From an uncultured Planctomycetota bacterium (GTDB lineage Bacteria; Planctomycetota; Planctomycetia; Gemmatales; Gemmataceae): DNA of 64,000 nt. Below are positions 2,170-33,119 of this stretch, in pieces. The stretch lies in NCBI GenBank assembly GCA_963783095.1, contig CAWAMR010000018.1, forward strand, positions 9,920 through 73,919, given 5' to 3'. Position 1 is the stretch's first letter. Each line of letters begins with the position of its first letter. The notes under the pieces were generated by a model. That model was given only the letters and a program-made list of their open reading frames with translations, did not search any database and had not been told where the DNA came from. A program made the position numbers and the translations under genes.

Positions 2170-4550
2170 ATGCAGCGCAGCATTAGCCGAGCCACGCGAA
2201 TCAGGTTTCTCTCAATTCTGCTGACTTGCCTTGCAGCAACTCCGCTGCGAGCGGAGCAGCCGGTCGGCGTTTACCTTTTTCCCGCCGGCGCTCAGCGCGG
2301 CACCTCTCCCGAGATCCTCATCGGCGGCTTGTTTCTCAACAAAACCTGCAACCTGGAAATCCTGGGTGCCGGCATCGAAGCACCCAAACAAATCCATCGC
2401 GCTATCTCACCCTGGTTCGAGGGGCCGGTCCTGCCCTTGCCGGAGTCGCAGCGACAAGAAGATTATCCGCGTGCGATGTCGGCGAAGTTCCAGATTCAAC
2501 CGGATGCCAAGCTGGGTAGTCGGGAAGTGCGGATGTGGACTTCGCAAGGCGTCACCGCCCCCCTGAAGTTCATCGTTGGCGACTTGCCGGAGATTGTCGA
2601 AAAGGAAATCGCCGGAGAGCCGATCCCCGTTCCGGTTAAGGCTCCGGTAACGATCAATGGCCGGATTTTTCCGCACGAAGACATCGATATTTACACGGTC
2701 TCCCTGAAGAAGGATGAGACGATTACCTGTTCCGTCGACGCCGCCAAGCTAGGCTCACCGTTGCAAGCTCATCTTGAAATTCGCGATGAGCAGCAGCGCC
2801 GACTCGCCGAGAGCAGCGAGTGCCGGTATGCCGAGCCTCGACTGGCTTTCACAGCGCCGAAACAAGGAATTTACCAAATCGTCATCCGCGACCTTCGCTT
2901 TGACGGTGGATCGGCGTTCGTCTATCGCCTGACCATCCTGACGGGGCCATCGGTTGCGCGAGTCTTCCCGCTGGGTGCCCGGCGCGGCACCCAGACTCGA
3001 TTTGAGATTTCCGGACCCTCGCTTCGGAACAACATCGCGAGCCTGACCATCCCGCAAGATGCTCCCTCGTCCTATCGGACTCGGTTTCACGTTGGCGAAG
3101 AGGACACGAATCCCGTCGTACTGGATGTGGACGATCTCCCGGAGATCGTCGAAACGCAGCCTGCAACGGATCCGATCAAAGCCAATTTCCTTTCCGTGCC
3201 CGCGATTGGCAACGGCCGAATTTCCAAACCCGGCGAGATCGATGACTGGAGTTTTTCCGCTCGAAAGGGCGACGTGCTCGACATCGAACTTCGTGCGGCC
3301 CGGCTCGGTTCTCCTCTTTTGGGAATGTTGACGATTGTCGATCGATCGGGCAAAGTGCTTGCTCGTGACGAACCCGGAATTAGTTCCCATCCATCACTGC
3401 GATTCACTGCCCCACAGGATGGGCTTTACCGCATTCGGGTCCAGGATCAGTTCCGCTCGCGCGGTGGTTCCGACTATTCCTATCGGCTCCGCGTCGATCG
3501 TCCCAAACAAAGTTTTGCACTGCATTTCAGCACGCCGTCGCTGACTGTTCTCCAGGGTGCTCAGACACCTTTGAAATTGACGGTCAATCGAATGGGTGGG
3601 TTCACCGGCCCCATATTCCTGCGTGTTGAGGGAGTTCCTCCGGGAATCACGCTGCCAAAAGAGTTGCTGATCGCCGCGAATCAAAGTAGCGTCGATGTTC
3701 CACTGAAGACGGAAAAAACCATACCGCTCGGTTCGTCGATTATTCGAGTTACCGGCACGGCGTTTTTGCCCAATGCGTTTAGCTCCATCCCGCTTCCGAT
3801 GCAGCGGGAAGCCGTTCTTGACGCGTATAGTGATGATCTGGCGTTCTCGCAGGTTCGTCTGGTTGTTGCGATCGCTACACCCTTCAAAATCGTCGGTGAA
3901 TATGTGTCCAACCAGGTGCCGCGCGGGACGATGTACACGCGCCGATACAAGATCGAGCGCGCAACGGCTTCACAGGGCCCATCGAGATTGCGATGGCGGA
4001 TCGCCAGGCCCGTCACCTGCAAGGTGCGGCAGGGCCAACGATCATCGTTCCGGCAGACAAGAATGAATTCGAATATAACGTGCAATTGCCGCCCTGGATG
4101 GAAACCGGGCGAACGTGCCGCGTTTGTGTGATGGGAACGGGTGTCATCAAGCAAAGCGACGGCACCGAGCATGTGGTGGTGTTCTCTTCTCGCGAGCAAA
4201 ACGATCAAATCATCGCGGTCGTCGAACCCGAAAGACTCGCTCTGATTGTGGATCGCACCAGTTTGCGGGTCGAAGCGGGACAGAAAATCGAGATTCCGGT
4301 TGAGATTCGGCGAGGTGAAGGATTGAAGGGCCCCGGACGGCTCGAATTGATCGTGCCGGAAACCATCTTGGACATTCGCGCAAATGCGGTGACAATTCCA
4401 GCCGATTCGGGTCGAGGCACTTTGACGGTCAGCTTCGGACCCAGCGCCAAAGGGCCATTTCCCGTACCGATTATCGTTCGCGCAACCGTCGATGATCGCG
4501 GCAAGCCTGTGGTGGCGGAAGCGAAACTCGACCTCGTAGGCAGTCGATAA
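2170..4550 (+). CDS. Large secreted protein with at least three PPC (bacterial pre-peptidase C-terminal)-like domains; apparent frameshift near 3965-3990
   Basis: Signal peptide MQRSISRATRIRFLSILLTCLAATPLRA. Repeated G(R/N)I...DIDxYTV/DDWSF...LGSPL...YR(L/I)RV modules. ORF 2071..4131 ends in an R-rich non-protein-like tail, whereas the overlapping ORF 3993..4550 in another frame is protein-like. Confidence 0.6.
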
Positions 4551-13292: not shown

Positions 13293-13378
13293 GGAGAGGT
13301 GGCAGAGCGGTTGAATGCGTCGGTCTCGAAAACCGATATACCGCAAGGATATCGGGGGTTCGAATCCCCCCCTCTCCG
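13293..13378 (+). tRNA. tRNA-Ser (anticodon CGA), class II with long variable arm; no encoded CCA
   Basis: GGAGAGG acceptor stem pairing with CCTCTCC; D-arm GCAGAGCGGTTGAATGC; anticodon loop CTCGAAA; long variable arm; T-arm GGGGGTTCGAATCCCCC. Confidence 0.85.
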
Positions 13379-25142: not shown

Positions 25143-26030
25143 TCAGCGCACGCCAGAAGCCAGGATCGGTCCATTGTTTTGGAAAGCCAGCGCCGTCAAC
25201 GGCTTGAGGTGTAACTCAAAACTGATGGGAGTGGAACCTGCCGGCCCTTTGCCGGAACAATCCCAGATCGTGACTTGCTCACCGCCTCCGGTTGCCAGAA
25301 ATCGGCTGCTCGAATCCCAGGAAAGTTCTTTCACTTTCTGCGGATAGCCGGTCATTTCAAGGTTTTTTCCGTTCTTCACATGCCAGAAATGGACCAAGGC
25401 ATCCTGGCAACCACCCGCGATGAATTGACTATCCGGCGACACGGCCAGGGCGAGCACTGAGCCTTTCCACTCGAATCGGCGAATAAGACTGTCATTTTCC
25501 GGCGACCAAAAAAACACGCCCCCGTAGCAGGTGGTAATGAATTCTTTCCCTTTGGGCAACCAGGAAACCGCCGCGATCGTTGCTGCCTGATCCGGATAGT
25601 TTTGCAGAAGCTCTCCTTTGGCGTTCCAGAGACGGAGTTTTTTGCCGGCGGCGGACACAAGCCATTCGCCGCAAGGATGCCAGATAAGCTGTTCAACCCA
25701 GGCTGAGCCACCGTCCATCGCAACCATTTCCGAACCGGTTTCGCCATCCAGAGTCGAACTTTCCCATCTTGCCCGGCACTTGCGAGCAATTTGCCGCCGG
25801 GCTGCCAGGCGATCGCGGCCGTGCCAAAGCCATGACCTTTCAGAGTTTGTTTGACGCCGCCAGTAGTTGTGTCGAACAAGGTGATTGGTCCGCTTATCGA
25901 CCCGGCCGCGAGAACGGAACCATCTGTGGACCAGGCAAGAGAAATGACGTGGTCGCCGATATTTGCGAGCCAGGCGCTGTCTGAGAACGGGAGGTTGTGT
26001 CACCTTGGCCATGAGAGTTCCAAATTCCAA
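25143..26030 (-). CDS. WD40-repeat protein; at least one apparent frameshift near 25745
   Basis: Blades such as GHGFGTAAIAWQPGGKLLASAGQDGKVRLW (ORF 25376..25879) and LVHFWHVKNGKN...LATGGGEQVTIWD (ORF 25143..26030). Confidence 0.7.
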   Translation of the reverse strand: MEFGTLMAKVTQPPVLRQRLARKYRRPRHFSCLVHRWFRSRGRVDKRTNHLVRHNYWRRQTNSERSWLWHGRDRLAARRQIARKCRARWESSTLDGETGSEMVAMDGGSAWVEQLIWHPCGEWLVSAAGKKLRLWNAKGELLQNYPDQAATIAAVSWLPKGKEFITTCYGGVFFWSPENDSLIRRFEWKGSVLALAVSPDSQFIAGGCQDALVHFWHVKNGKNLEMTGYPQKVKELSWDSSSRFLATGGGEQVTIWDCSGKGPAGSTPISFELHLKPLTALAFQNNGPILASGVR

Positions 26031-27024: not shown

Positions 27025-28872
27025 CTACTGCATGAAAAAGCTCGTACTTTCTTCTTTCACGATAGGCTGCTTCAATTGATCGCACGACATCTGGACCTTG
27101 AACCGCATATCCCCAGGGATTGTGCCCTTGGCTTTGACTTTGATGACCGCATCGGCCTTCATCGCCAGATTTGGGATCGGGTCGAAGTGCAACGCCTGCC
27201 CGACCGACTTGTAGGGTACCGGCCCTGTTGCAGTACCAGGCACTAATCCTTCCGACGTGATCGCAGTGATGCGAATGTTGGTGCAAGGACAAGTCCCTGT
27301 ATTCACAATTCGGATTTCGTAGGTCGTTTCTTTTCCTACCTCGATCGGATTTTCAAGATTTGCTACTTCGAAGCTCAGGGCCGGGACTCCTTCCGCTGCG
27401 ATAATCGCTTCGGATCGGGCACCGAGCTTCGGGCCGGCCTGAGCCACCGCTCGAACCGCGAGTGAACCAGCACCCGTCGAACGTGTCTTAATGGTGAGAT
27501 TGCGGCGCAGTCCCCGCATCCGCTGGCCCAAAGTTCCAACTCACCGTCCGAGTTGCGGCATCGTAAACGCCCCCGTCACTGGCCGAGACGAAGTCCAACC
27601 CTTCCGGGAAGGCAGTGGCAATCTGGACAGGCTGCGTAGCGCAGGTGCCCGGATTTCCAATCTCCAGTGTAAAGGTCGGCTCTGCCCGCACCATACAGCG
27701 GCGTGGCCCCGTCAACGCCAAGGCAAGTTTGGGCTGATTCAGTTGGATCTCTGCTCTGGCAATCGCCTTTGGCGATCCTTCACATGTTGCGCTCAGGCTG
27801 CAATTATGTGTTCCGGTGGCAATGGCCTGAACCTTGAGGGTGATGGACTGAGTGTCACCCGGTAGAATCCGGGGCAAAGTCGCTTCGATGTCTTTTCCTT
27901 CGGGATGTTTCAGGCCATCACTCAGCGGCGCTTTAATGCTGACCTTGTTTGCATCGCCTGTGCCGGTGTTCATTACCTGAATTTGGATTGGAATCTCATC
28001 TCCAACTTGGCGGCGTTGGGAGCAGTCAAAGTCACGCTCAAGGTCGGTCGAGTGACCTTGACGAGCATATGCGTGTGGGTCGAATAGGAGAGCGATGGGT
28101 TGGTGTTCAAATCGCCTTCCGGATTGGGCCGAACCGTGACCTGGATGCGCTTTTCGTCGTTTGGACCCATTGAGCCGAGCATCCACAGAATTTTTCCGCC
28201 GGCCTGTTCACCGGCCGGCTCGGCACTGATGTATTTTGTGCCCTGAGGCAACTCTTCCTCAACGCGGACATGCGTGACGGCCGCTTGGCCGACGTTCCTC
28301 ACGAGGATTTCGTAAGTAACGGGTAGGCCGTGGCCGACGGTATCCGGTCCTGTAGTTTCAATCGACAGACAAGGCACAATACGATTTCCGGAAGCTGCAT
28401 GGGTTTTCAGCGGCACCGGCCCCGGCAAGGTAGAGCCGGGATGATGGGTGGATTGAAACCGGAGTTCCGATGCCGGTGCTTTCGGAACAGTCCGTGGCTG
28501 GAGTAGTGTAGGTTTTGGCCTATCGGGCAACACGATCGCCGGCTCGCCCGCGGGTGCAATCGGCGATGCGCTGGTTTTGGGTTGGTTCGGGTCGATGACC
28601 GGCAACACGAGACTTGGCGAATCGTTTTTGGGTTGCGGCAAAGGGGCCAATGTTGTTGGCGCAGAAGGTGCCGATGGTATTTCAAGAGGCTCCGGTGTCG
28701 GAATTGCCGGCGTAGAGCTCGAGCCATCCTTCTTGGAGAATGAGTAGGTTGTGGGCTGGACTTGAGGGAGTTTCAAATCAGGTTGCGCGGTAACGATATC
28801 ACCATGGATCAACCCGATGCCGCAAAGACCCGCGATACCCAGCATCAGCGTAAACGCCTGAATTCGTCTCAC
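27025..28872 (-). CDS. Secreted protein with Pro/Thr-rich linker and three DUF11 (conserved repeat) domains; two apparent frameshifts (~27510, ~28180)
   Basis: Signal peptide MRRIQAFTLMLGIAGLCG; repeats ...TYEI.V.N.G.A..T.V.V.D.LP.GL.F... spread across ORFs 27973..28872, 27488..28186 and 27025..27531. Confidence 0.65.
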
Positions 28873-29065: not shown

Positions 29066-29150
29066 AGTAGTGTTCAGTGTTCAGTTTTCAGTTTTCAGCA
29101 TCCAAAGGTCTTGAACTGAAATCTGAACACTGAAAACTGAACACTACACT
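29066..29150. terminator. Hairpin of TGTTCAG/TTTTCAG heptamers, same family as 10361-10455 with an imperfect stem, overlapping the mazG-like stop codon
   Basis: agtagtgttcagtgttcagttttcagttttcag - loop - ctgaaatctgaacactgaaaactgaacactacact. Confidence 0.55.
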
Positions 29151-29470
29151 GGATATTTAACCTCGTTTTTCTTCATCTTCGCATGGACAACTGCGCTGAG
29201 ATCAATGCCGCTGTGGTTACTGAACTGGAAAACCAGGCAAGCCACATCGGCCAGTTCATCCGCGATGGCTTCTCGTTTCAGGGGATCGAGAATCGTCTGT
29301 TGCGATTCCTCACCCGTCAGCCAGAGAAAATGTTCCATCAGTTCCGAGGCTTCGCACGCCAATGCCATACTCAGGTTCTTGAGTGTGTGGTACACAGCCC
29401 AATGCCGAGCGCCGGCAAAATCGCGGACGATTTCCTTGAGCGATTCGATCGTCGTGATCGCATCGGACAT
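29144..29470 (-). CDS. MazG-like nucleotide pyrophosphohydrolase domain protein
   Basis: RHWAVYHTLKNLSMALACEASELMEHFLW...EAIADELADVACLVFQF motif pattern. Confidence 0.75.
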   Translation of the reverse strand: MSDAITTIESLKEIVRDFAGARHWAVYHTLKNLSMALACEASELMEHFLWLTGEESQQTILDPLKREAIADELADVACLVFQFSNHSGIDLSAVVHAKMKKNEVKYPV

Positions 29471-29649
29471 AGAGCCTTTTCGGGTTCTTGAACATTTTGC
29501 TCGGTAATTCGAGCCGCCAATGTCGCCCCCGGCGGTTCAATTCACGAGAGGGGGCATATAAACCCAATATGGAGGGCTGTCAAGATGAAGAAACGAATTC
29601 AAATCTTAACTCTCGTAGGCGTGACTGAACCGCCAAGTAGATTCAACTC

Positions 29650-29740
29650 GTAGCCGAATTCGCCAGAATTCGGGTCTGATTGCGGCAATCGGCGCGTGCG
29701 CATCCAAAGTCTGCCCGAATTCTGGCGAATTCGGCTACGG
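29650..29740. repeat. Long inverted repeat (~26 bp arms, ~38 nt spacer) in the divergent mazG / P-type ATPase promoter region
   Basis: gtagccgaattcgccagaattcgggtc ... gcccgaattctggcgaattcggctac; each arm contains two GAATTC sites. Confidence 0.5.
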
Positions 29741-29803
29741 AAAAGATCTGTCCAACCATAGACCTGGATTTTCCGCGCTTGAAGCTGACAATACCTCCAT
29801 CCC

Positions 29804-31888
29804 ATGCACCGTGAAATCTCACACACCGATGAAGTCTTCGGCGAATCGAGCAATGCCGGGCTGTACTTGCTCACCGCCCTCCTGGCGATTTTGCTTGCTC
29901 TGGATTTGTGGACGCCTCTCGCAAGCTGGCTCACGTCGCTGAATCTCGGCATCGAATGGCCCATCTGGCAGCGTGAGTTCTCGGGTTATCGCTATGCTCT
30001 CATCGCGGCAGTTCTCGGCGGTGCCCGCGTATTGTTCAATTCATTGGAAGCCCTCTTTGACGGCAAGCTTGGTGCCGACCTCGCCATTGCCGTTGCCTGT
30101 ATCGCAGCCATCCTGATCGGTGAGCCTTTGGTCGCTGCGGAGGTGGTCTTCATTGGCTTGATCGGAGAATGTCTCGAAGCGTTCACGTTCGCTCGTTCCC
30201 AGCGCGGCATTCGCAAACTCGTCGAAGTGTTTCCGCGCAAGTGCTGGTTATTGCGCAACGGGCAGGAAATCGCGGTCAACACCGATGAGGTTCGGGTCGG
30301 CGATCGAGTTGTGGTCAAACCGGGCAAGAAAGTCCCCGTCGATGGCGTTGTCGTCGAGGGCCGATCTGCCGTTGACGCTTCACCGCTCACCGGTGAGAGC
30401 TTGCCCATCGATAAGGAGCCGGGTAATGATGTGCTTGCCGGCAGCATCAACCAGTTCGGCTTGATGATCGTTGAGGCGAAGAAGGTTGCGGAGCAAACCG
30501 TCGCGGGCCGGGTGATCGAACTAACCTCGAAGGCGCTCAAGGACAAGGCCCCCATCCAGCGCGGAGGTCGATCGGCTCGCAAGATACTTTCTCCCGGCAG
30601 TGTTGGGGCTGGCATTTCTCAGTTTCTTGATCAATGCGATCTATCTGGCAGGGCCATTTCGACCAGAATCGAGCCGGCTCAACTGGTCCGCTGCCGCCCG
30701 GCTCAGCATGTATCCTACCCTGGGCGTACTCGTCGTTGCCTGCCCATGCGCTCTGGTGCTGGCAACGCCGGCAGCGGTCATTGCTGCGCTCGGCAGGCTT
30801 GCGGGAACCGGTGTGCTCATCAAAGGAGGCAGCGTCCTCGAACGGCTCGCGACGGTGAAGACTTTTGCTTTCGACAAAACCGGAACTTTAACCGAGGGTC
30901 GGCTCGAGCTTGGCGACATCATTCCCGCAGATGGGATTGAAGCGAATGAGGTATTGCGAACCGCTGCACTTGCAGAACAAGGAAGCGAACACCCCATTGG
31001 GCAGTTGCTGATCCACACTGCGCGGGATCGGTCAATCTCCCTGGAGCCCTTGACGGAATTTCAGGCCCATCCGGCGCAGGAATCTCAGCGCTTGTTTCCG
31101 GTCATCATCTTCTCGTCGGTACGCATCAGCTGTTGGAATCCGAAGGTGTCGCGATCCCTGCCGCGATCAGGGACGCCTTGACTCACCTGGATGAATCCGG
31201 GCAAACTTCCCTCGTCGTTGTTCGCGATGGTGTGGTTCTGGGAACGATCGGGATGCGCGACAAGATTCGCCTGGACGCAGCAGACATCGTTGCGGAATTG
31301 CGCAGCGCCGGTGTCACTCGAATGATGTTGTTGACCGGCGATCGCGCTTCGGTTGCCCGCACGGTTGGTGAGCAATTACGGATCGAAGAAGTCCACGGCG
31401 AATTGCTGCCGGCCGACAAGGCAAACTTGATTTCCCAGGGGCAAGCCGCAACCGGCCCCAGCACCGCTTTTGTCGGGGACGGCATCAACGATGCTCCCGC
31501 ACTGGCCGTTGCAACGGTCGGGATCGCCGTGAGCGGTTCGGATATCGCTGCCGAGGCGGGCGATGTGGTCTTGATGGGCGAGCCGCTACGACACCTCCCT
31601 CTATTGCTCCGGCTCTCGCGCGAAACAATGCGCATCATCCGCCAAAACATTGTCTGGTTTGCTTTTGGTGTAAATCTGGTCGGTGTGTTGATCACCGGCA
31701 TTCTCTGGCCGCTGTTCGCCACGTCGCCCGACTGGTACGACAAGTCTCCGCTGTTCGGTGTCATCTATCATCAGGCCGGCTCGTTGCTGGTTTTACTCAA
31801 CTCCATCCGACTACTGGCCTTTGAGCGCCGATCGACGCATGCAGGCTGGCGGCGCTGGACGGACCGATTCGCCGCAATTGACCTGTGG
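29804..31888 (+). CDS. P1B-type heavy-metal-translocating ATPase with no N-terminal metal-binding domain; two apparent frameshifts (~30590, ~31090)
   Basis: TM-first N-terminus; TGESLPIDKEPGN actuator region, CPC in VVACPCALVLATP, DKTGTLT phosphorylation site, GDGINDAPAL. Spread across ORFs 29804..30940, 30600..31181 and 31133... Confidence 0.8.
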
Positions 31889-33119
31889 ATGCAACGAAAC
31901 CTGACGGTCGATAGCGCCTTGCACGAATTGACTCACCGCTGGCGTTGGGCGCTGGGCGGACTGGGAACGCTGGCCCTGATTGCCTGGCTGTCGACGAGCC
32001 TGGTGCAGGTTTCACCCGATCAGGTAGGAGTGTTAAAGCGATTTGGACGAATCGAGGAAATCTTACGGCCGGGGCTTCACATTCGCTGGCCCTGGCCGGT
32101 CGAGATTGTGATGAAACTGGCTCCCGATGAAGTGAAAACAGTAGGGCTTGGGTATCGCTCACCCGAAGAAGAAGAAACGGATGAGGATTTGCCGCGCAAG
32201 CGAGTTATGAAACCGAAAGCAGGTCAGGCACCGCAAGGGGCAACCTGGACCAGCCTGCATGGTGGAACCGAGAGCTTTGCCGAAGAAGCAGTGATGATAA
32301 CCGGCGATGGCAACCTCGTCGAGATTCTTGCGACCGTCGAATACCGAATCGACGACCCGAAACAGTATCTTCTCGCCGCACGGCAACGAAAACCGATACT
32401 GCGTTCGGCAATGGAATCGGTGCTGCGGGAGATGGTCGCGGGCCGGACTTTCGCCGATTTGTTGACGGTCTATCGAGCCGAATTCGAAGCCTCAGCACAG
32501 GCTCATCTCAAGCAACGAATTCGAGAACTGGCACCCGAAGGCTTAGGCATCCATCTCAATGGCTTCATCGTTCACGATCTCCATCCGCCCAGAGCTGTGG
32601 TGGCCGACTATTACGAAGTGGCCCGCGCCATTCAGGCCCGCGATCGGATGATTAACGAGGCGCAAGCCGAGGCGATCCGCAAACGTCGCCGAGCTGAGGA
32701 GGATGCCATTCGACTGGTGAATTCGGCCGGCACCGCGGCGAATGAGCACGTTGGCAGACAGGCGCTGAAACGGCGAAATTCTCGCGCTGCAACAGGCCCG
32801 TCAACAACTCGAACTGGTCGATGAGGCCAACCTGGCAGCGGAATTAAACCTTGCGCTGATAATGGGACAAGACCAAGCCACTGCGGTGAGCGACTATCTG
32901 CTTCGGCGTAAGAGATTGTTGTTGCTCAGGCGATCGATGATCGATTCGCGTCTCGCCTGGGAAGCATTGACGGAAGTTCTCCGCAAGAGAGACAAGATCA
33001 TTCTCGACATCGAAAAGCTACCGGGCCGGCGGCACTTATTTCTGGTCGATCCCGAATGGTTAAAGCCAACGATGCTGGTTCCCCCCGGCCCGCTGCTTCC
33101 CAATAGGGAAAGTAATTAG
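31889..33119 (+). CDS. SPFH/band-7 HflK-like protein, in frame with (no stop after) the ATPase; apparent frameshift near 32765
   Basis: TM helix ALGGLGTLALIAWLSTSLV followed by VSPDQVGVLKRFGRIEEILRPGLHIRWPWPVE...NGFIVHDLHPP...EAQAEAIRKRRRAEEDAI. The C-terminus RLAWEALTEVLRKRDKIILD continues in ORF 32862..33119. ATG at 31889 is a possible independent start. Confidence 0.6.

What the first reader, a model, noticed from the sequence alone, without database searches (positions are those of the whole stretch)
31700..32000. In-frame junction between P1B-type ATPase and an SPFH/HflK-like protein
The ATPase's last TM helix (…LLNSIRLLAF) runs without a stop codon through a ~45-aa linker into a TM helix and full SPFH/band-7 domain (VSPDQVGVLKRFG…). 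A covalent ATPase-SPFH fusion would be an unusual architecture, coupling a membrane-microdomain scaffold to a metal pump. The alternative is two genes (internal ATG at 31889) with the ATPase stop lost to one of the many indels here; frames +1 and +2 have stops at ~31823 and ~31887.
Basis: partly seen in the sequence, partly recalled or inferred. Interest (0 to 1): 0.6.

Follow-up and report, generated by a model that had tools for sequence, protein, structure and literature searches.

The report
Metal pump fused to HflK scaffold
The junction is real: a heavy-metal-pumping ATPase is joined in one protein to an HflK-type membrane-scaffold domain, and the same undescribed design recurs in hundreds of Planctomycetota and Acidobacteriota, suggesting pumps hard-wired to a scaffold ring.

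Summary
The reading frame that carries the last ATPase helix (…LLNSIRLLAF, ends 31822) runs without a stop through a 41-residue linker into one transmembrane helix and an SPFH/Band_7 domain.

The fusion reading is supported and the "lost stop" alternative is refuted:
- All 120 best protein hits span the junction.
- 55 of 80 species-level genome loci hold one intact ORF of about 1,105 aa covering the ATPase and the SPFH C-tail.
- Linker length is fixed at 34-39 aa.
- Linker codons differ from the closest relative mainly at third positions.

The same architecture occurs in Gemmatales, Planctomycetaceae and Acidobacteriota. It is often followed by an hflC-like and a second hflK-like gene.

The pump is a P1B ATPase with an unusual site signature: CPC in M4 and an invariant YHQxGS in M6. 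The SPFH half is closest to HflK.

The window copy has four single-base frame breaks elsewhere (~30566, 31070, 32761, 32773). Other genes in the window are broken too, so these are probably long-read errors.

Most likely function: the pump is tethered covalently to an HflK/HflC-type ring, giving a fixed metal-efflux platform. This step is inferred, not shown. No paper describing the architecture was found.

The parts
29804..33119 (+). Whole ATPase-HflK-like fusion gene. The reconstructed product is 1,106 aa. In this window it is interrupted by four single-base frame breaks.
   Evidence: tblastn of relatives P0001, P0004 and P0042; reconstruction; single-frame alignment over q1-~1100 in 55 intact relatives.
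29804..30565 (+). ATPase piece 1 (frame mod3=2). It holds the conserved N-terminus MHREISHTDE, helices MA, MB, M1 and M2, and the actuator domain with TGES (30389-30400).
   Evidence: Pfam E1-E2_ATPase E=2.7e-35. The N-terminal MHRE is at least 85-98% conserved in 55 intact relatives.
30563..30569 (+). Frame break 1 (frame 2 to 0) inside …KDKAPIQR|VDRLARYFLP…
   Evidence: The exact base could not be fixed because the closest relative's contig starts downstream.
30567..31071 (+). ATPase piece 2 (frame mod3=0). It holds M3, M4 with CPC (30741-30749), the phosphorylation motif DKTGT (30873-30887) and SEHP (30984-30995).
31070..31070 (+). Frame break 2: one C is missing from a C run (CATCCCGG in L003 against CATCCGG here).
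   Evidence: DNA alignment to L003.
31073..31822 (+). ATPase piece 3. It holds the rest of the N and P domains (GDGINDAP 31475-31498), M5 (31646-31723, invariant N624), a family-specific periplasmic loop SPDWYDKSP (31724-31750), and M6 (31751-31822) with the invariant YHQxGS (YHQ at 31766-31774).
31823..31945 (+). Cytoplasmic linker of 41 aa (ERRSTHAGWRRWTDRFAAIDLWMQRNLTVDSALHELTHRWR). This is the junction named in the finding.
   Evidence: No stop in frame. Length 34-39 aa in 55 relatives. W695, H707 and H711 are conserved within Gemmatales. Third-position-biased divergence. AlphaFold2 predicts two helices for the equivalent segment of P0042 at pLDDT 63-76.
31946..32008 (+). Ninth transmembrane helix, which is the N-terminal anchor of the SPFH module. 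It is always 21 residues long.
   Evidence: hydropathy; invariant length; AF2 helix 716-733 in P0042.
32009..32653 (+). Periplasmic SPFH/Band_7 domain. It carries a variable insertion with an invariant W-x-S-x-H (32246-32260).
   Evidence: Pfam Band_7 E=7e-21. E. coli HflK is the only solved relative, 7vhp, E=1.7e-13. TIGR01933 hflK E=1.4e-35. Conservation.
32654..33119 (+). Coiled-coil and 'hat' region plus the conserved C-tail (…DKIILDIEKLPGRRHLFLVDPE…). It contains frame breaks 3 and 4, single-base deletions at 32761 and 32773.
29648..29740 (.). Perfect 28-bp inverted repeat, 65 nt upstream of the start codon. It is possibly a 5'-UTR or operator element, and whether it belongs to this gene's control is unproven.

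Best explanation
Window 29804-33119 encodes a single polypeptide of about 1,106 aa.

The N-terminal 673 residues are a complete, catalytically equipped P1B-type transition-metal ATPase. It has eight helices and no HMA domain. Its site signature is CPC in M4, N in M5 and YHQxGS in M6.

The cytoplasmic C-terminus of the ATPase continues through a linker of about 40 residues into a ninth transmembrane helix. That helix places an HflK-like SPFH domain, its coiled coil and its C-tail in the periplasm, which is the normal HflK topology.

Proposed mechanism, inferred and not shown: the HflK-like half oligomerises as SPFH proteins do. Where the partner genes are present, it does so together with the hflC-like and second hflK-like genes that follow the fusion gene in many relatives. 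Each fusion subunit would then tether one pump to the ring. The result would be a fixed-stoichiometry, clustered metal-efflux platform.

Simple geometry suggests the pumps would sit around the outside of a 24-mer cage unless plain HflK-like subunits dilute them.

The metal is not Cu(I)-typical. His-rich tails in some members point to a borderline divalent metal (Zn, Co, Ni or Cd), but this is unassigned.

The four frame breaks in this copy are most likely consensus errors of a long-read assembly.
For: Shown here:
- The junction is open in frame.
- All 120 best hits span the junction.
- 253 species genomes match the junction pattern. Of the 80 fetched, 55 hold an intact ORF of about 1,105 aa, and most of the rest are cut by contig ends.
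- The closest relative, P0001 (81% identity), is identical in two independent assemblies, L003 and L004.
- Linker length is constrained, and linker codons are under purifying selection.
- All P-type catalytic motifs are present, and TIGR01525 scores 545 bits against a cutoff of 346.
- HflK is the only solved SPFH relative.
- The architecture recurs in Planctomycetaceae and in Acidobacteriota.

Support for assembly with partners:
- An hflC-like gene lies directly downstream in 26 of 50 Gemmatales loci, together with a second hflK-like gene in 17 of them. In L003 the hflC-like gene scores 155 bits on TIGR01932 against a cutoff of 134.
- The same gene order is found in Bryobacteraceae L086, Blastocatellia L087 and the Planctomycetaceae-type locus L090.

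Support for a metal platform:
- The HflK-like partner in L087 carries a His-rich cytoplasmic tail.
- A TolC-like OEP gene follows the operon in L090.
- There is a published precedent: mycobacterial P1B pumps need PacL scaffolds to cluster and to be stable (PMC9374683, PMC13460109).

Support for sequencing error:
- The deletions at 31070 and 32773 lie in C runs.
- Other genes in the window are frame-split at 3960 and ~25745, and two overlapping DUF11 ORFs at 27488-28872 may be a third case.
- Frame-broken homologues occur mainly in long-read assemblies: L001, L002, L055 and L064.
Against: - No experiment and no multimer model supports ring assembly or clustering. The AlphaFold2 model is a monomer of a relative, with only moderate confidence in the linker.
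- This window has no hflC-like or second hflK-like gene anywhere in its 64 kb. 24 of 50 Gemmatales loci also lack them nearby.
- The HflK equivalog model is below cutoff for this protein: 123 bits against 159.
- The His/Trp motif of the linker is not conserved outside Gemmatales.
- Metal specificity is unassigned. The signature fits none of the described P1B subgroups.
- Without reads, true pseudogenisation of this copy cannot be excluded. Four breaks in 3.3 kb is at the high end for this window.
Confidence: 0.72

Rival explanations
1. There are two separate genes, an ATPase and an hflK-like gene starting at the ATG at 31889. The ATPase stop codon was erased by an indel or sequencing error at the junction.
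For: The gene does contain indels. An in-frame ATG exists at 31889. A 70-codon open stretch could arise by chance.
Against: - There is no gap against the intact closest relative between 31462 and 32215.
- Every one of 120 hits and 55 intact genomic ORFs is continuous across the junction.
- The Met at 31889 is present in only 24 of 121 sequences.
- The linker shows coding-type divergence.
Confidence: 0.02
2. The architecture is genuine in relatives, but this window's copy is a decaying pseudogene and the four frame breaks are real mutations.
For: - There are four breaks in 3.3 kb.
- The hflC-like and hflK-like partners present in the 81%-identical relative L003 are missing here.
- Some relatives are also disrupted. 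L005 has two in-frame TAA codons, and G. obscuriglobus LR593888 has a frame change in a P-domain insertion.
Against: - All catalytic and family-invariant residues are intact.
- Divergence from L003 is dominated by synonymous changes.
- The breaks are single-base deletions, two of them in C runs.
- Unrelated genes in the window are frame-split too, which fits a window-wide technical error rate.
Confidence: 0.12
3. The fusion serves proteolytic control rather than scaffolding. By being part of an HflK/HflC cage that houses FtsH, the pump is presented to, or shielded from, FtsH, which sets its turnover.
For: - The SPFH half and the neighbouring genes are HflK-like and HflC-like.
- PGAP names the acidobacterial members 'FtsH protease activity modulator HflK'.
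- HflK/C cages enclose FtsH and modulate degradation of membrane proteins (PMC13220708).
- The P-type ATPase MgtA is a known FtsH substrate. This rests on my own knowledge; only related MgtA and MgtS references appear in that paper's reference list.
Against: No ftsH gene is linked in any locus examined. The FtsH-binding surfaces could not be tested. This reading overlaps with the main explanation rather than excluding it.
Confidence: 0.15
4. The system is a metallation or sequestration compartment. Pumps inside the ring deliver metal into the closed periplasmic lumen of the SPFH cage, either to load a client protein or to confine the metal.
For: - The SPFH domain is periplasmic and of the cage-forming HflK type.
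- The periplasmic M5-M6 loop is extended and conserved.
- An invariant W-x-S-x-H lies in the SPFH insertion.
Against: By my area estimate, twelve ATPase headpieces do not fit under a 20-nm cage. No conserved candidate client gene was found in the flanks. This reading is wholly speculative.
Confidence: 0.07

Closest known systems
P1B-type heavy-metal ATPases: AfCopA/LpCopA (P1B-1), ZntA (P1B-2), sCoaT (P1B-4; PDB 7qbz)
   Same: Full catalytic core (TGES, DKTGT, SEHP, GDGINDAP) and CPx in M4. TIGR01525 is above cutoff. Sequence E-values to the solved pumps range from 1e-87 to 1e-101, and Foldseek's top hits are P1B pumps. M6 aligns end to end only with sCoaT, HEGST against HQAGS.
   Different: The signature CPC / N / YHQxGS fits no described subgroup.
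- It lacks the YN and MxxSS of Cu(I) pumps, and TIGR01511 is below cutoff.
- It lacks the K and DxG of Zn pumps.
- It has CPC instead of the SPC of P1B-4.

The nearest non-fused relatives are only 41-46% identical over the C-terminal third. There is no HMA domain. The M5-M6 loop is longer. About 430 residues of HflK-like protein are attached to the C-terminus.
E. coli HflK/HflC (FtsH-associated SPFH cage; PDB 7vhp, 7wi3, 9cz2)
   Same: N-in single TM followed by a periplasmic SPFH domain, a coiled coil and a C-tail. HflK is the only solved homologue found. An hflC-like gene follows in the hflK-hflC order in many relatives, and in L003 it passes the HflC equivalog cutoff.
   Different: The short cytoplasmic N-tail of HflK is replaced by a 673-residue pump. 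TIGR01933 is below cutoff for this protein. The SPFH domain has an extra insertion with W-x-S-x-H. A third SPFH gene, a second hflK-like gene, is often present. A link to FtsH is untested. No partner genes lie in this window.
Mycobacterial PacL-Ctp 'effluxosomes' / metal efflux platforms (PMC9374683, PMC13460109)
   Same: The concept is the same: P1B pumps are held in high-molecular-weight membrane clusters by a single-pass scaffold protein. Some scaffolds carry His-rich metal-binding motifs, DLHDHDH in PacL1 against DHPHPHDHGDGGHHHGHDHSHE in the L087 partner.
   Different: PacL proteins (DUF1490) are described in those papers as small single-pass proteins, not as SPFH proteins. They are separate polypeptides that bind the pump's N-terminal domain. 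The platforms form independently of flotillin. Here the scaffold is an SPFH protein and the link is covalent and C-terminal. This is an analogy only, and no homology was tested or claimed.
P1B-5 ATPases with a C-terminal hemerythrin-like domain
   Same: They are a precedent for a P1B pump that carries a large extra C-terminal domain (from my own knowledge; Smith et al. 2014 could not be read).
   Different: That domain is soluble and cytoplasmic. Here the addition crosses the membrane and is an oligomerising periplasmic scaffold.

Membership tests
P-type ATPase, class P1B | Catalytic motifs TGES (A domain), DKTGT (phosphorylation), HP in the N domain (SEHP) and GDGxNDxP (P domain) | tested here: met
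   All are present in the reconstructed protein at residues 196, 357, 394 and 558 and conserved in 55 relatives.
P-type ATPase, class P1B | CPx-type motif in M4 and curated family model | tested here: met
   CPC at 313-315 (30741-30749). TIGR01525 scores 544.7 bits against a cutoff of 346.
P-type ATPase, class P1B | Eight-helix topology (MA, MB, M1-M6) | tested here: met
   Hydropathy peaks. The AlphaFold2 model of relative P0042 shows the expected helices. Foldseek top hits are P1B structures.
P1B-1 (Cu+/Ag+ pumps, CopA) | M5 YN and M6 MxxSS; usually N-terminal HMA domain(s) | tested here: not met
   M5 has VN and M6 has YHQAGS. There is no HMA hit. TIGR01511 scores 369.8 bits, below the cutoff of 397. 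The JGI label 'Cu+-exporting ATPase' is therefore unsupported.
P1B-2 (Zn/Cd/Pb pumps, ZntA/CadA) | CPC in M4 with K in M5 and DxG in M6 | tested here: inconclusive
   CPC is present, and TIGR01512 scores 418.8 bits against a cutoff of 313.5. However, the M5 Lys and the M6 Asp are absent. The K and DxG signature is taken from my own knowledge.
P1B-4 (Co/Zn/Cd pumps, CoaT/CzcP) | SPC in M4 and HEGxT in M6 | tested here: not met
   M4 has CPC, not SPC. M6 has HQxGS, so His is kept and Glu becomes Gln, which is invariant in 121 sequences. The nearest non-fused relatives do carry SPC and HEGST.
SPFH / Band_7 superfamily | Band_7 domain after an N-terminal membrane anchor, followed by a coiled coil | tested here: met
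   PF01145 E=7e-21 against a gathering score of 23.6. TM at 715-735. The AF2 model has an alpha/beta SPFH fold followed by a long helix.
HflK (FtsH protease activity modulator) | Curated equivalog score (TIGR01933) | tested here: not met
   123 bits against a cutoff of 159.4. It is HflK-like, not a certified equivalog. PGAP nevertheless names the acidobacterial fusions HflK.
HflK (FtsH protease activity modulator) | Paired with an adjacent hflC gene | tested here: not met
   No second Band_7 gene lies anywhere in the 64-kb window. The feature is met in relatives: 26 of 50 Gemmatales loci and L086, L087 and L090.
HflK (FtsH protease activity modulator) | Forms a 12+12 cage with HflC and binds FtsH | not testable with these tools
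   This needs multimer modelling or biochemistry.
PacL-type efflux platform | PacL-type (DUF1490) scaffold encoded next to the pump | not tested
   No such domain was looked for specifically. Pfam scans of the neighbouring ORFs show unrelated families. It is treated as a functional analogy only.

The most novel reading that the evidence does not exclude
These proteins define an unrecognised P1B subfamily with the signature CPC/HQ. Its members are built into an HflK/HflC-type cage as covalent subunits. This would be a natural 'Rosetta-stone' fusion showing that SPFH cages take ion pumps as clients. The machine would be a ring of up to twelve pumps around, or feeding into, a closed periplasmic chamber. 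It would also imply that unfused HflK/C and P-type ATPases interact in other bacteria.
Probability: 0.3. Interest if true: 0.8.

Novelty: new variant of a known kind. Interest (0 to 1): 0.66.

Why it matters
What SPFH scaffolds actually organise is a long-standing question. For bacteria the only well-defined client is FtsH.

A conserved, covalent pump-SPFH fusion, spread over two phyla and usually accompanied by HflC-like and HflK-like partners, names a client outright. It also gives a tractable system for structure and genetics, because cultured Gemmata, Fimbriiglobus and Schlesneria carry it.

For metal biology it adds a pump clade with a new binding-site signature. It is also a second, independent case, after the mycobacterial PacL platforms, in which P1B pumps appear to need a membrane scaffold.

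Practically, current annotation splits or mislabels these genes as 'Cu+-exporting ATPase', 'HflK' or 'hypothetical'.

Tried and rejected
- Riboswitch upstream: Rfam scans of the whole window and of 29100-29900 found only a tRNA elsewhere and miRNA-like hits. The latter merely reflect a long hairpin.
- Hairpin as a shared regulatory element: the arm sequence occurs nowhere else in the window or in 85 related loci.
- Linker His/Trp motif as a universal metal site: it is conserved in Gemmatales but not in the Planctomycetaceae or acidobacterial subfamilies. I therefore do not build on it.
- Conserved non-SPFH neighbours, such as a metal regulator, ftsH or a chaperone: clustering of flanking ORFs across the fetched related loci gave only the two Band_7 genes and their antisense shadows.
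- Foldseek of the whole model against the PDB: the list is saturated by P-type ATPases and says nothing about the SPFH half.
- Literature: eight full-text searches found no description of the fusion. The key P1B classification paper, PMC4119550, is not held, so I cannot exclude that it lists this architecture.
- Cluster look-up of divergent members gave almost no taxon names. Taxonomy came instead from two further homologue searches.
- Frame-break test with overlapping ORF pairs scanned against Pfam was only suggestive. tblastn with proteins of related loci gave two clear extra frame splits.
Full report
**1. The observation**

Reading 31500-32200 and listing ORFs shows one ORF, 31133-32824 (563 aa, frame mod3=2). 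It contains the end of a P-type ATPase and then a Band_7 domain.

Pfam finds Hydrolase (E=2e-11) and Band_7 (E=7e-21) in the same ORF.

Between 31780 and 31990 this frame has no stop, while the other two frames have three stops each. The in-frame ATG at 31889 exists.

The description is therefore accurate. The linker is 41 residues (31823-31945) rather than about 45. By itself a 70-codon open stretch at this GC content is not remarkable (my estimate is about 0.08), so the question has to be settled by comparison with relatives.

**2. The gene as a whole is frame-broken, but not at the junction**

tblastn with relatives places the ATPase and the SPFH module on four frame segments: 29804-30565, 30567-31071, 31073-32761 and 32775-33119.

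A DNA alignment with the closest relative, L003 (protein P0001, 81% identical), shows uncompensated single-base deletions at three places:
- 31070, where CCC has become CC
- 32761
- 32773, in a C run

A fourth break lies near 30566.

There is no gap between 31462 and 32215, so the junction is colinear with an intact gene.

Other genes in the window are frame-split too:
- a PPC-domain protein at 3960
- a WD40 protein near 25745
- probably a DUF11 protein at 27488-28872

Frame-broken homologues elsewhere are concentrated in long-read assemblies: G. obscuriglobus LR593888, Flye-style 'contig_' records and MFD MAGs. I therefore read the four breaks as probable consensus errors. True decay of this copy remains possible at about 0.12.

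Joining the segments gives a protein of 1,106 aa.

**3. The fusion is real and conserved**

- A homologue search with the junction ORF returned 120 listed proteins. All of them have residues in every column from M5 through the start of the SPFH domain.
- A pattern scan of one genome per species found 253 matching stretches.
- Of the 80 best loci, 55 hold a single uninterrupted ORF that aligns to residues 1 to about 1,100 of the reconstructed protein (median 1,105 aa). Most others are truncated by contig ends.
- These include isolates (Gemmata algarum JC673, Gemmata sp. IIL30, strain CJuql4) and many short-read MAGs.
- P0001 is identical in two independent assemblies.
- The linker is 34-39 aa in all 55 and the following helix is always 21 aa.
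- The Met encoded at 31889 is present in only 24 of 121 sequences, so there is no conserved internal start.
- Across the 62 linker and TM codons, the window and L003 differ by 30 synonymous-only and 12 amino-acid-changing codons. The base differences fall 15:4:36 by codon position, which is the signature of translated sequence under purifying selection.

The 'lost stop' alternative is refuted.

**4. The architecture is much wider than this lineage**

A search of 1.84 billion cluster representatives with the ATPase C-terminal third showed many proteins of 1,000-1,150 aa with the match at about residues 440-690. The sequences fetched revealed further subfamilies that also end in an SPFH module. 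Two follow-up searches placed them:
- One subfamily (N-terminus MHY(V/I)PES…, HE in M6) is in Planctomycetaceae, including Schlesneria.
- One subfamily (about 1,000 aa, CPC in 116 of 119; of the 60 proteins in which my M6 pattern matched, all have H-Q) is in Acidobacteriota, in Blastocatellia and Bryobacterales. NCBI's pipeline names these 'FtsH protease activity modulator HflK'.

**5. The two halves**

*ATPase.* TGES, DKTGT, SEHP and GDGINDAP are present. TIGR01525 is far above cutoff. The Cd-type model TIGR01512 is above cutoff and the Cu-type model TIGR01511 is below it.

Solved P1B pumps of all subgroups match about equally, with E-values from 1e-87 to 1e-101. Only sCoaT (P1B-4) aligns through M6, HEGST against HQAGS.

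Within the family, N624 in M5 and Y655-H656-Q657 and S660 in M6 are invariant. CPC is invariant in M4 wherever M4 is covered. An extended periplasmic M5-M6 loop with a conserved proline is family-specific.

The nearest non-fused relatives are only 41-46% identical. They are either SPC/HEGST pumps or CPC/YN/MxxSS copper pumps.

The signature CPC / N / YHQxGS matches none of the described subgroups, as listed in PMC13460109 and PMC7558416. The 'Cu+-exporting' label is unsupported and the substrate is unassigned.

There is no HMA domain. A short His-containing N-terminal motif (MHREISHTD) is conserved, and some distant members have frankly His-rich N-termini.

*SPFH half.* E. coli HflK is the only solved homologue (E=1.7e-13). 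TIGR01933 gives E=1e-35 but is below the equivalog cutoff.

An AlphaFold2 model of relative P0042 (mean pLDDT 78) shows the following, in order:
- the P1B fold
- two linker helices, at pLDDT 63-76
- a transmembrane helix
- an SPFH alpha/beta domain
- a long helix

Topology follows from established P1B topology, in which the C-terminus is cytoplasmic. The linker is Arg-rich and cytoplasmic, and the SPFH domain is periplasmic as in HflK.

**6. Context**

In this window the neighbours are unrelated: a MazG-like gene upstream on the other strand and a class-III aminotransferase downstream on the other strand. No second Band_7 gene exists in the 64 kb.

In relatives the dominant conserved neighbour is a pair of SPFH genes directly downstream on the same strand. 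One is hflC-like; in L003 it scores 155 bits on TIGR01932 against a cutoff of 134. The other is a second hflK-like gene.
- Of 50 Gemmatales loci with enough downstream sequence, 17 have both genes, 9 have the hflC-like gene only and 24 have neither.
- The same three-gene order occurs in Bryobacteraceae (L086), Blastocatellia (L087) and the Planctomycetaceae-type locus L090. In L090 a TolC-like OEP gene follows. The order is not found in L088.
- The HflK-like partner in L087 has a cytoplasmic tail DHPHPHDHGDGGHHHGHDHSHE.

**7. How it most likely works**

*Shown.* One polypeptide joins a complete P1B pump to an HflK-like module. The design is conserved in two phyla and is frequently encoded together with HflC-like and HflK-like proteins.

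*Inferred.* The SPFH half assembles into an HflK/HflC-type ring and thereby tethers pumps into a fixed cluster.

From the published dimensions of the E. coli cage (about 20 nm, 24 subunits; my own knowledge), twelve pump headpieces would not fit underneath it. They would fit on a circle about 4 nm further out, which a two-helix linker could span. I therefore expect pumps on the rim, or dilution of the fusion by the plain HflK-like subunit.

The nearest functional precedent is the mycobacterial PacL-Ctp efflux platform. There, an unrelated single-pass scaffold, sometimes carrying a His-rich motif, is needed for P1B pump stability and clustering (PMC9374683, PMC13460109).

Two alternatives cannot be excluded:
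- coupling to FtsH-dependent turnover (PMC13220708 for the HflK/C-FtsH background)
- pumping into the cage lumen

**8. Novelty**

Both parts are well-known kinds. The combination was not found in eight full-text searches. One relevant classification paper could not be read.

I rate it a new variant of a known kind. It is common in sequence databases, unrecognised in annotation, and mechanistically suggestive.

**9. Verdict**

| Question | Result |
|---|---|
| Observation | confirmed |
| Its alternative (lost stop) | refuted |
| Identity of the fusion | about 0.95 |
| Scaffold-platform mechanism | about 0.5 |
| Interest | 0.66 |

Noticed in passing
window 29648-29740: A perfect 28-bp inverted repeat (CGTAGCCGAATTCGCCAGAATTCGGGTC…) with a loop of about 35 nt lies 65 nt upstream of the fusion gene's start codon. 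It sits in the divergent intergenic region shared with a MazG-like gene. The RNA fold is -62.7 kcal/mol with z=-9.6. The repeat is unique in the window and absent from 85 related loci. Its role is unknown.
   Followed up: partly
window ~3960, ~25745 and 27973-28186: Other genes are also split between reading frames: a PPC-domain protein (2197-4538), a WD40 protein (25155-25948) and probably a DUF11-repeat protein. This suggests a window-wide single-base indel rate of roughly one per 1-2 kb, typical of an unpolished long-read assembly.
   Followed up: partly
L001 5700-5900 (Gemmata obscuriglobus LR593888.1): The deposited annotation splits the orthologue into an 'ATPase' of 639 aa and an 'HflK' of 498 aa that begins inside the ATPase, before M5. 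The frame change lies in a low-complexity P-domain insertion that contains a GGGGGG run, not at the junction.
   Followed up: partly
L031, L032, L037, L042, L044, L047 (Gemmata spp.), P-domain loop before GDGINDAP: There is a hypervariable, low-complexity, in-frame insertion of 20-55 aa (for example …LLPSPLAGEGAASPRAAGEGG…). It looks like translated GC-rich palindromic repeat DNA, tolerated in a surface loop of the pump.
   Followed up: no
L005 8878-8895: One relative (protein P0042) has two in-frame TAA codons 15 nt apart in the coiled coil, with the reading frame continuing to the normal C-tail. This could be a genuine truncation or split, or an assembly artefact.
   Followed up: no
L087 9917-10993: The second HflK-like partner in a Blastocatellia operon carries an N-terminal cytoplasmic His-rich tail (DHPHPHDHGDGGHHHGHDHSHE). 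It is reminiscent of the metal-binding motif of mycobacterial PacL1.
   Followed up: partly
L086 10867-11370 and L087 11020-11451: A small conserved gene of 143-167 aa, with one N-terminal hydrophobic helix, no Pfam hit and 32% identity between the two copies, ends the acidobacterial four-gene operon.
   Followed up: no
L090 10886-12472: A TolC-like outer-membrane efflux protein (PF02321) follows the fusion and the two Band_7 genes in a Planctomycetaceae-type locus.
   Followed up: no
L002 8937-10877: The hflC-like and second hflK-like genes are called as one 646-aa product in this long-read contig. This is either a second SPFH-SPFH fusion or another indel artefact.
   Followed up: no
record titles of L034, L045, L052, L065, L066, L076 and protein P0471: Contigs carrying the Gemmatales-type gene are labelled Alcaligenaceae, Ilumatobacteraceae or Isosphaera in their MAG records, and one homologue sits in a eukaryotic protein set. 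These are probably binning, taxonomy or contamination errors.
   Followed up: no
window 13293-13378 (+): This tRNA gene is the only Rfam match above gathering score in the window.
   Followed up: no
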